From contig OX597835.1 of NCBI GenBank assembly GCA_951406725.2, positions 46,190,001 to 46,254,000 of the forward strand: 64,000 nucleotides of DNA. Direction: 5' to 3'. Positions 49,600 through 51,108 of this stretch are shown one piece after another (position 1 is the stretch's first letter; every line of letters begins with the position of its first letter). Under the pieces are notes generated by a model. It was given only the letters and a program-made list of their open reading frames with translations, ran no database searches and was not told the DNA's origin. Source of the stretch: Octopus vulgaris (lineage: Eukaryota). Both the position numbers and the translations under genes were made by a program.

Positions 49600-51108
49600 T
49601 AGGAAAATAGTAAAGTGTGAAAAAACGACAGAAGGCTTAAATGTTAAAAAATATATATATTTGTGTCAAAATGTCTGGAGAATATTGGAAAAATTTTTTT
49701 TTCCTTTCCTTAAAATGACATAATTTTAAAATTTTTTAAAGAAATTACCGGTTTCGCGTGTAGCTTTTCAAATTTCTTGTGACGTTATGTTTATATTGCA
49801 TGGAATTATCGTTGTTTTTATTTCCAGGAGATTTCTAAATAAGGGGAGGTAGTGAGTGATTTTTTCCGGTGTAGGGGAGATAATCGCTTAAAAAATTTTT
49901 TTCCCATTTCCTTGTTAATTTCTCTGTGTCAGTATGTTCGGATGGTTGAGTCTGGGTTTGTACTTTTCAATGAAGAATGTTTCCTTGTTCAGTCTCATTT
50001 GTGTTGATGATCCGAAAGCACATTGGTAAAATGGGAAGATTAAAAATTGTGGCAGTAGTTGCTTTGCGCATTTCTCAATGTGCTCACTAAAAGGTATCAT
50101 TCTATATTCTGGGAATGCAATCTGTTGTCGATGCAGTGTGCATCTGCGCCTGAGTGATAGTCCCGTGGAACCCACGTAGTCTTGGTGGCAGCCCGAGCAT
50201 TTAATAACATAAATTATGTTTTCAGAGGCACAAGTAAAGTTAGATTTGATCTTAAATTTCTGTCCCTCTTTAAAGAAGAATTCTGATCCTTCCAATAGGT
50301 TAGGACATGTTGCACAGTTCGATCTACCACATTTTTTTACTTTTGCATCCGTAATTTTAGAAGACAATTTTGCCTTTGTGAGAATCTTTTTAAGTGATTT
50401 AGGCTGTTTGTAGCTTTTAATGATTTGGTGTATGTTTAGAATTTCCTTTAATTTGGGGTTTTTATGAAGTATTGGTAAATTCTGGGTGATGATGGTGAAG
50501 GCTTCTTTGTTTCTGGGGTTGTATGTAGATATGTAAGGTAGTATTTTCGGGGAAGGTGTGTTGTTGTGTTGAACTTTTCTTAAAGTTTCTATGTTGATTT
50601 CTGTTGCACGTCTGATCCCATCCTCTATGAGTTGAGCTGGGTAATGTCTGTCAATTAGGGTGTTTTTGAGTTCTTGCAGTCTAAAGTTCCTGGTATTTTG
50701 TTCTGACACTATTGTGCATGTCCTTCTTGCAAGGTTGAAGGGGATGTTTGTTTTAGTGTGTCTTGGGTGGCATGAATTAAAAAGAAGGTATTGTTTGGCG
50801 TCTGTGGCTTTGTAAAAAATGTCTGTTTCTATTTTAAGGTTAATTTTTTTAATTAGTATATCCAAGAACGGGAGCTCCTTTTGGTTGTATTCCATTGTGA
50901 ACTGTATATTTGGGTTTATGCTGTTCAATAGGTTTTTAAATTTTAGGAGTTTATCTATGTTTTCATTCCAGAGAATGAAACAATCGTCTAGGAATCGTTT
51001 CCAATTCTCTTTTATGTATTGAGAGAGGGAGTTTCCAAAGATTGATAGAGATTCCTGGTAAATGATTATTTCCATGTATCCCATTGTTAAGTTCGCAATG
51101 ACTGGTGC
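49600..51108 (-). mobile_element. 5'-truncated Penelope-like retroelement (Neptune-type), copy 2, open frame
   Basis: Uninterrupted frame from [11 protein letters not shown] through [24 protein letters not shown] and [18 protein letters not shown] to the stop at 49915. Highly similar to copy 1. The 5' end is fused to a 200-bp (TA)n. Confidence 0.95.
49739..49778 (-). ncRNA. Minimal hammerhead-like motif in PLE 3' UTR, U3-A8 variant
   Basis: Minus strand: aagaaat-TTGAAAA-gc(tacac)gc-GAAA-ccgg-TA-atttctt, with a perfect 7-bp stem I, GUA triplet and palindromic ACCGGT. Confidence 0.75.

What the first reader, a model, noticed from the sequence alone, without database searches (positions are those of the whole stretch)
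49739..49778. Best-preserved U3-A8 hammerhead: 40 nt with a 2-bp stem II
It has a perfect 7-bp stem I, UUGAAAA core, GC/GC stem II, GAAA, ACCGGU palindrome and GUA site, about 140 nt after the PLE stop codon. The paralogue at 44534 changes the stem-II loop (taaat versus tacac) and the triplet (GUC) while keeping the core. It is an extremely small candidate ribozyme.
Basis: partly seen in the sequence, partly recalled or inferred. Interest (0 to 1): 0.7.

Follow-up and report, generated by a model that had tools for sequence, protein, structure and literature searches.

The report
Tiny hammerhead ribozyme in Penelope retroelement
This 40-base stretch at the tail of a Penelope-type jumping gene has the shape of the small hammerhead RNAs these elements are already known to carry and likely cuts itself only slowly and in pairs, so it is an unusually compact example of a known thing, not a new kind of ribozyme.

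Summary
Observation confirmed, on the minus strand (49778 to 49739): 7-bp stem I, core UUGAAAA (U3-A8), 2-bp stem II, GAA, palindrome ACCGGU, A17. It starts 136 nt after the stop codon of a 5'-truncated, Neptune-like Penelope element.

It is not chance. 14 of 19 related elements (34-47% protein identity) carry the same architecture after their ORF; shuffles and ORF-side controls gave 0. A model built without the window ranks it first in 64 kb (E about 1.5e-5).

It is a type I minimal Penelope hammerhead. The U3-A8 core, 2-bp stem II, palindromic stem III and dimer cleavage are each in print; I found no paper with all of them together, but could not read the key one (Lunse 2017). The scan noted U3-A8 Penelope hammerheads in two other genomes.

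Corrections: the paralogue also lacks one base, which unpairs the base of stem I. U3 can pair with A17 (predicted probability about 0.7), a likely brake. Both copies run at least 142 nt past the GUA site, so the cut does not set their 3' end. Cleavage is untested.

The parts
49739..49778 (-). Type I minimal hammerhead motif: stem I 7 bp, U3-A8 core UUGAAAA, stem II 2 bp with 5-nt loop, GAA, palindrome ACCGGU, A17
   Evidence: top hit of a model built without the window, 26.7 bits, E about 1.5e-5
49745..49746 (-). Predicted cleavage point, 3' of A17 (GUA)
   Evidence: hammerhead numbering applied to the sequence; not tested
49747..49752 (-). Palindrome ACCGGU, predicted to form a 6-bp stem III between two copies
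   Evidence: cofold pair probability 0.93; palindrome kept as ACATGT, ACGCGT, ACTAGT in relatives
49780..49785 (-). ACGTCA (CRE-like half site) 14 nt before U3; the same hexamer is enriched upstream of relatives' hammerheads; possible promoter element
49915..51109 (-). 5'-truncated Penelope-like ORF (end of RT, linker CX4CXXC, C-terminal GIY-YIG endonuclease), Neptune-like; preceded by (TA)n
49604..49914 (-). 3' pseudo-LTR region shared with the second copy; ends about 142 nt past the predicted cut
49560..49603 (-). About 44 bp of extra 3' sequence absent from the second copy, then (TA)n; likely the optional Penelope 'tail'
   Evidence: tail described in PMC11167929 and PMC8557442 (passages)
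44534..44572 (-). Paralogous hammerhead: same core, stem II and palindrome; loop UAAAU, GUC, one base missing in stem I
   Evidence: (17.3 bits, E about 0.013)
44393..46118 (-). Second 5'-truncated copy of the same element, 94% identical over 1.5 kb, frameshift near 45670

Best explanation
The motif is a type I minimal hammerhead in the 3' pseudo-LTR of a 5'-truncated Neptune-like Penelope retroelement, and it likely self-cleaves after the A of GUA only slowly and only when paired with a second copy. Shown: the anatomy, the position, and conservation with compensatory changes across related elements. Predicted: alone it cannot close stem III; two copies pair through ACCGGU and swap stem I strands to build two active sites. 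Inferred: in tandem master copies the partner is the next pseudo-LTR, and the cut processes the tandem or read-through RNA, probably with help from the element's own protein. It does not set the 3' end of inserted copies. This solo, truncated copy is likely a passenger that seldom cuts, further slowed by a competing U3-A17 pair.
For: Position: 14 of 19 eligible related loci (of 54 fetched) have the motif on the sense strand 96-542 nt after the end of the protein match; 0 of 19 in equal lengths of ORF, 1 of 19 antisense, 0 in 200 shuffles. Covariation among 8 short-stem-II motifs: 93% of cells paired, 11 of 13 pairs change on both sides, slid controls 28-57%. Model without the window ranks the target first. 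Monomer with stem III closed costs +3.1 kcal/mol against -4.0 for the best fold; double hammerhead -14.1 against -15.5 for the best dimer, which differs only by U3-A17. U3-A8 in Penelope hammerheads, palindromic stem III, no monomer activity and low multimer activity: PMC4209133. U3-A8 active in vitro and 1-2 bp stem II: PMC3088659. Protein-assisted cleavage, not needed for insertion in vitro: PMC11167929. In run X2 every listed change from a plus-strand A (5 A>G, 5 A>T, 1 A>C) lies outside the motif, so no U3-to-C variant reaches 3%.
Against: No cleavage data. Rfam hammerhead models do not detect it. U3-A17 pairing is predicted at 0.71-0.73 in monomer and dimer, analogous to the C3-G17 trap (PMC3884650). 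No loop or pseudoknot contact between stems I and II is apparent, whereas the tested 1-bp stem II ribozyme needed a pseudoknot. The covariation set was picked with a descriptor that demands pairing, and several loci are near-duplicates. For three C3-G8 relatives the double hammerhead lies 2.6-10 kcal/mol above the best dimer fold, so the energy model does not single out the active fold in general. A GUC form with the shorter stem I strand also shows in 8 contigs of run X11, so the family is not uniform at the cut site.
Confidence: 0.72

Rival explanations
1. It descends from a hammerhead but no longer cuts: the fold is kept as a binding or folding signal for the element's protein, or is a relic in a recently amplified family.
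For: U3-A17 trap, 2-bp stem II and no visible tertiary contact; paralogue with broken stem I register; insertion did not need cleavage in the Anolis element and no RNA-seq reads ended at its site (PMC11167929); Naiads thrive without canonical hammerheads (PMC8557442).
Against: Catalytic bases U4, G5, A6, A9, G12, A13, A14, A15.1, U16.1 are invariant in the 8-row alignment, and C3-G8 changes to U3-A8 as a pair in separate branches, which is what selection on catalysis predicts; U3 with A17 recurs in 3 of 6 U3-A8 motifs seen.
Confidence: 0.17
2. It is an efficient stand-alone 40-nt ribozyme that cuts as a monomer and defines the 3' end of the element's RNA.
For: Perfect 7-bp stem I and complete core; GUA is a natural triplet (PMC1636495).
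Against: Stem III as a monomer is one A-U pair round four bases, +3.1 kcal/mol; both copies extend 142-186 nt past the site and read depth beyond the site equals that over the ORF; a published minimal Penelope hammerhead was inactive as a monomer.
Confidence: 0.08
3. It is a chance look-alike in A/T-rich DNA.
For: Folding z-score -0.37; no Rfam hit.
Against: 0 matches in shuffles; same architecture at the same place in 14 of 19 relatives; independent model hit.
Confidence: 0.03

Closest known systems
Minimal hammerheads of Penelope-like elements, including the U3-A8 families of Schistosoma mansoni Cercyon (Cervera and De la Pena 2014, PMC4209133; main text parts 1-2 of 4 and the supplement's text read)
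   Same: Type I, in the pseudo-LTR 3' of the GIY-YIG ORF, palindromic stem III, U3-A8 core; their S. mansoni(4) row has the same UUGAAAA; predicted to work as dimers.
   Different: Their helix II is 3-8 bp (shortest in Fig. S3 is 3 bp) and usually has an extra base after position 9; here 2 bp and no extra base. Their printed descriptor (stem II at least 3 bp, 8-9 nt second box, CUGANGA) would miss this motif.
Short-stem-III hammerheads of Penelope-like elements that cleave as dimers (Lunse, Weinberg, Breaker 2017, PMC5785218; not held, seen only as a title and as summarised in PMC6765202)
   Same: Palindromic very short stem III, Penelope context, dimer cleavage.
   Different: Cannot say; the paper and its alignments could not be read and may already include 2-bp stem II, ACCGGU forms.
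Natural hammerheads with weak stem II and U3-A8 covariation (Perreault et al. 2011, PMC3088659; passages and section 8 read)
   Same: Stem II of two base pairs called common, one case of one pair; U3-A8 seen in nature and reported active in vitro.
   Different: The tested short-stem-II example is a type II ribozyme held by a pseudoknot; none is apparent here.
Hammerhead of the Anolis Poseidon element PAc (PMC11167929; passages read)
   Same: Pseudo-LTR hammerhead upstream of the element's 3' end and optional tail.
   Different: C3-G8 core, overlaps the start codon, Poseidon clade; shown to cut only with protein, untested here.

Membership tests
Hammerhead ribozyme, type I | Core U4 G5 A6 N7 A9, G12 A13 A14, A15.1-U16.1, H17 | tested here: met
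Hammerhead ribozyme, type I | Watson-Crick pair between positions 3 and 8 | tested here: met
   U3-A8; C3-G8 in 12 and U3-A8 in 2 of the 14 sense-strand relatives
Hammerhead ribozyme, type I | Three helices round the core, open at stem I | tested here: met
   stem I 7 bp, stem II 2 bp G10.1-C11.1, stem III 6 bp only between two copies; covariation
Hammerhead ribozyme, type I | Self-cleavage 3' of H17 | not testable with these tools
   no assay; all laid runs were contigs, which cannot show RNA ends
Canonical (tertiary-stabilised) type I hammerhead, Rfam models | Score against Rfam hammerhead models; loop 1-loop 2 contact with 4-bp stem II | tested here: not met
   no hammerhead family among 4 matches up to E 10; stem II 2 bp
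Minimal hammerheads of Penelope-like elements | Lies in the pseudo-LTR just 3' of an RT plus GIY-YIG ORF, same strand | tested here: met
Minimal hammerheads of Penelope-like elements | Palindromic, unstable stem III | tested here: met
   ACCGGU
Minimal hammerheads of Penelope-like elements | Cleaves as dimer, not as monomer | not testable with these tools
   predicted by folding only
Neptune clade of Penelope-like elements | C-terminal GIY-YIG, linker CX2-5CXXC, (TA)n insertion | tested here: inconclusive
   motif CGRSNCATC and (TA)n flanks present; Nematis shares the linker motif (PMC8557442) and no named reference elements were in the tree

The most novel reading that the evidence does not exclude
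A mostly uncatalogued branch of Penelope hammerheads in marine invertebrates has shrunk stem II to 1-2 bp, below the printed search descriptor, giving 36-40-nt obligate-dimer ribozymes. In this high-copy family the U3-A8 core is combined with A17 so that a U3-A17 pair locks the cut site until a partner copy or the element's protein releases it: a built-in off switch rather than decay.
Probability: 0.12. Interest if true: 0.5.

Novelty: new member of a known kind. Interest (0 to 1): 0.22.

Why it matters
Mostly as a compact test case. What Penelope hammerheads do in vivo is still open, and a 40-nt motif with natural C3-G8 and U3-A8 versions, natural GUA and GUC versions and stems II from 1 to 5 bp gives a ready series for asking how small a dimer-dependent hammerhead can be and whether the 3-17 pair regulates it. 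It also shows that Rfam and the 2014 descriptor miss this form, so counts in invertebrate genomes may be low. It does not change what is known about hammerhead chemistry.

Tried and rejected
No whole genome is held for this window, so no genome-wide family alignment. Rfam gave only microsatellite-driven miRNA matches and no hammerhead. Pfam hit only the RT piece of the second copy, 1 of 9 proteins; the element was identified from homologues carrying RT and GIY-YIG annotations. Viral contigs held no pattern match and no relative; prokaryote genomes gave 2 relatives with one alignment (likely host DNA in a bin), none with another, and 22 chance-like pattern matches. Model R2 had an off-by-one structure and was not used; R1 contains the target, so its score is not evidence. 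No RNA holder is listed on record; contigs cannot show ends, strand or level, and 77 of 117 variant rows were not shown, so conservation across the 40 nt could be checked only for some kinds of change. No hammerhead was found after the other Penelope-type ORF at 61814-63010. Literature: 9 searches ran; none listed a paper on this combination or on cephalopod Penelope hammerheads; the supplement of PMC8557442 showed no such motif in the passages returned.

Full report
Observation. The motif lies on the minus strand, 49778 to 49739: AAGAAAU, UUGAAAA, GC-UACAC-GC, GAA, ACCGGU, A, AUUUCUU. In hammerhead numbering this is a 7-bp stem I, U3 and A8 in place of C3 and G8, a 2-bp stem II opened by G10.1-C11.1, G12-A14, a palindrome from A15.1 to U16.1, and A17. 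The core pattern occurs twice in the window and never in 100 shuffles. Its folding energy is ordinary (z = -0.37), and Rfam lists no hammerhead in the 241 bases around it.

Context. The motif starts 136 nt after the stop of an ORF (49915-51109) ending in a GIY-YIG endonuclease with a CX4CXXC linker. Of 193 homologues found, the 120 listed mostly carry RT, helix-turn-helix or GIY-YIG Pfam annotations, and the eukaryote-named ones are from octopods and bivalves. The host is therefore likely a cephalopod or other mollusc (inference). The linker motif and (TA)n flanks fit the Neptune clade as described in PMC8557442 (passages), without a formal clade test. A second copy (44393-46118) is 94% identical over 1.5 kb. 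Both are 5'-truncated and share a 3' end about 142 nt past the predicted cut; the first has about 44 bp more, like the optional Penelope tail. The family is very abundant: summed contig depth over most of the stretch is several hundred thousand in two deep runs where single contigs have about 40-190 (not a copy count).

Paralogue. The same GUC-UUUCUU form shows as a loose end in 8 contigs of run X11, so it is likely a subfamily; its 5' stem I strand there is not visible.

Relatives. 54 related loci were fetched (52 metagenome, 2 from genome bins). 19 had a match reaching the C-terminus and at least 200 nt beyond. A descriptor asking for a 3-8 pair, GAA, a perfect 6-nt palindrome, H17 and 3 bp of stem I found a motif after the ORF in 14 of 19, in 0 of 19 ORF-side stretches, in 1 of 19 antisense stretches (likely a second element in the other orientation) and in none of 200 shuffles. 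Of the 5 misses, L010 is cut off mid-motif, L015 and L035 hold slightly damaged motifs found by the model, L012 lacks stem I and L014 is degenerate. Several loci are near-duplicates, so this is about ten families, not 14. Stem II is 1 bp in L002, 2 bp in L003, L036, L006, L009 and the antisense motifs of L023 and L037, 3 bp in L007 and 4-5 bp in the rest, often opened by U-U. The palindrome varies as ACCGGU, ACAUGU, ACGCGU, ACUAGU. In an 8-row alignment of the 2-3 bp forms 93% of cells pair and 11 of 13 pairs change on both sides, against 28-57% paired when partners are slid; the rows were chosen for pairing, so this supports the structure less than the position test does. A model built from 7 relatives without the window ranks the target first in 64 kb (26.7 bits, E about 1.5e-5, rough) and the paralogue second. 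On a protein tree of 32 rows (22 of the 54 loci, the two window copies, 8 database proteins) U3-A8 appears in the window family, in L018 inside a supported clade of C3-G8 elements, and in L053. This suggests repeated origin; no one-clade test was run, and L018's motif is 542 nt from its ORF and could belong to another element.

Family-level conservation. Of run X2's 37 variant places, 23 are shown; all 5 A>G, 5 A>T and 1 A>C lie outside the motif, so no U of the ribozyme, U3 included, varies at 3% or more among laid contigs (assuming the tally uses the same threshold). None of the 40 shown rows of 117 falls in the 40 nt, where about 2 would be expected, which alone is not significant.

Mechanism. 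Alone, closing stem III gives +3.1 kcal/mol against -4.0 for the best fold. Two copies paired through ACCGGU with swapped stem I strands give -14.1, and the best dimer fold (-15.5) differs only by U3-A17 pairs. This matches the dimer model of PMC4209133 (main text parts 1-2 of 4 and supplement text read; figures not seen), where a minimal Penelope hammerhead was inactive as a monomer and weakly active as multimers. The U3-A17 pair has predicted probability 0.71-0.73. It is the counterpart of the C3-G17 trap proposed to cover the cut site (PMC3884650, passages); applying that to U3-A17 is my inference. A17 occurs in 3 of the 6 U3-A8 motifs seen here, so it is at least tolerated. In PMC11167929 (passages) an Anolis element's hammerhead cut only with the element's protein, was not needed for insertion in vitro, and reverse transcription began at internal sites downstream. 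That fits both copies here running well past the site. In L003 a 3.7-kb unit closes on itself with the hammerhead 136 nt before the next start codon, the tandem layout that would supply a partner. For the window copy the only visible partner is the paralogue 5.2 kb downstream on the same strand, which needs a read-through transcript that I have not shown.

Comparison. U3-A8 in Penelope hammerheads (about 1,300 hits in S. mansoni, one family with the same UUGAAAA) is in PMC4209133. Two-pair and one-pair stems II and natural U3-A8 are in PMC3088659 (passages and section 8). Dimer cleavage of short-stem-III Penelope hammerheads is the title claim of Lunse et al. 2017, which is not held and was seen only through PMC6765202 (passages); its alignments may already hold this form. 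The 2014 printed descriptor would miss the motif and the shortest helix II in its Fig. S3 is 3 bp. Nine literature searches listed no paper on this exact combination. Also consulted as passages: PMC1636495, PMC7229834, PMC6155905, PMC6466107, PMC5737381, PMC6962438, and part 1 of 5 of bioRxiv 2026.07.22.740005, whose supplements are closed. Two earlier notes of this scan reached the same reading on other genomes; they were seen after my own reading and are not counted as evidence.

Verdict. A real, conserved, very compact Penelope hammerhead; a new member of a known kind; activity untested and probably low. Interest 0.22.

Noticed in passing
window 49580-50300, run X7 against X11 (same organism code): The run guessed to be RNA shows 39 A>G and 42 T>C places against 7 and 6 in the DNA run. 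This looks like A-to-I editing of transcripts of this element from both strands; the samples differ and most T>C rows are hidden, so editing inside the hammerhead could not be checked.
   Followed up: partly
window 49780-49785 and loci L002-L023: ACGTCA or TGACGT lies within 150 nt upstream of 10 of 15 relatives' hammerheads, against 0.12 expected per 150 nt; a possible CRE/ATF-type promoter element of the pseudo-LTR.
   Followed up: partly
window 13322-13368 (+) and about 15150-15198 (-): Two more U3-A8 hammerhead-like motifs with palindromes ACCGGU and AGCGCU, longer stem II and only 3-bp stem I; no related ORF next to them. Possibly solo pseudo-LTRs of other families.
   Followed up: partly
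window 60868-64000: A second, unrelated Penelope-type ORF end (61814-63010, minus) with a 136-bp inverted copy of its 3' end at 63865-64000; no hammerhead found after it.
   Followed up: partly
L003:194-3648: A related element has a separate 394-aa ORF before the RT-endonuclease ORF in a 3.7-kb unit.
   Followed up: no
L004, L008, L011, L013, L020, L023: These relatives open stem II with a U-U mismatch instead of G-C, a variant noted in PMC3088659.
   Followed up: no
L053, L054: Penelope-like elements on 2.3-kb contigs of a Campylobacteraceae bin; likely animal host DNA in the bin.
   Followed up: no
window 53823-54011, 46947-47098, 7561-7841; 57553-59130; 48965-49382 with 24174-24588: Three long inverted repeats, a roughly 750-bp tandem duplication and an 80%-identical 420-bp dispersed repeat; no tRNA genes found.
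   Followed up: no
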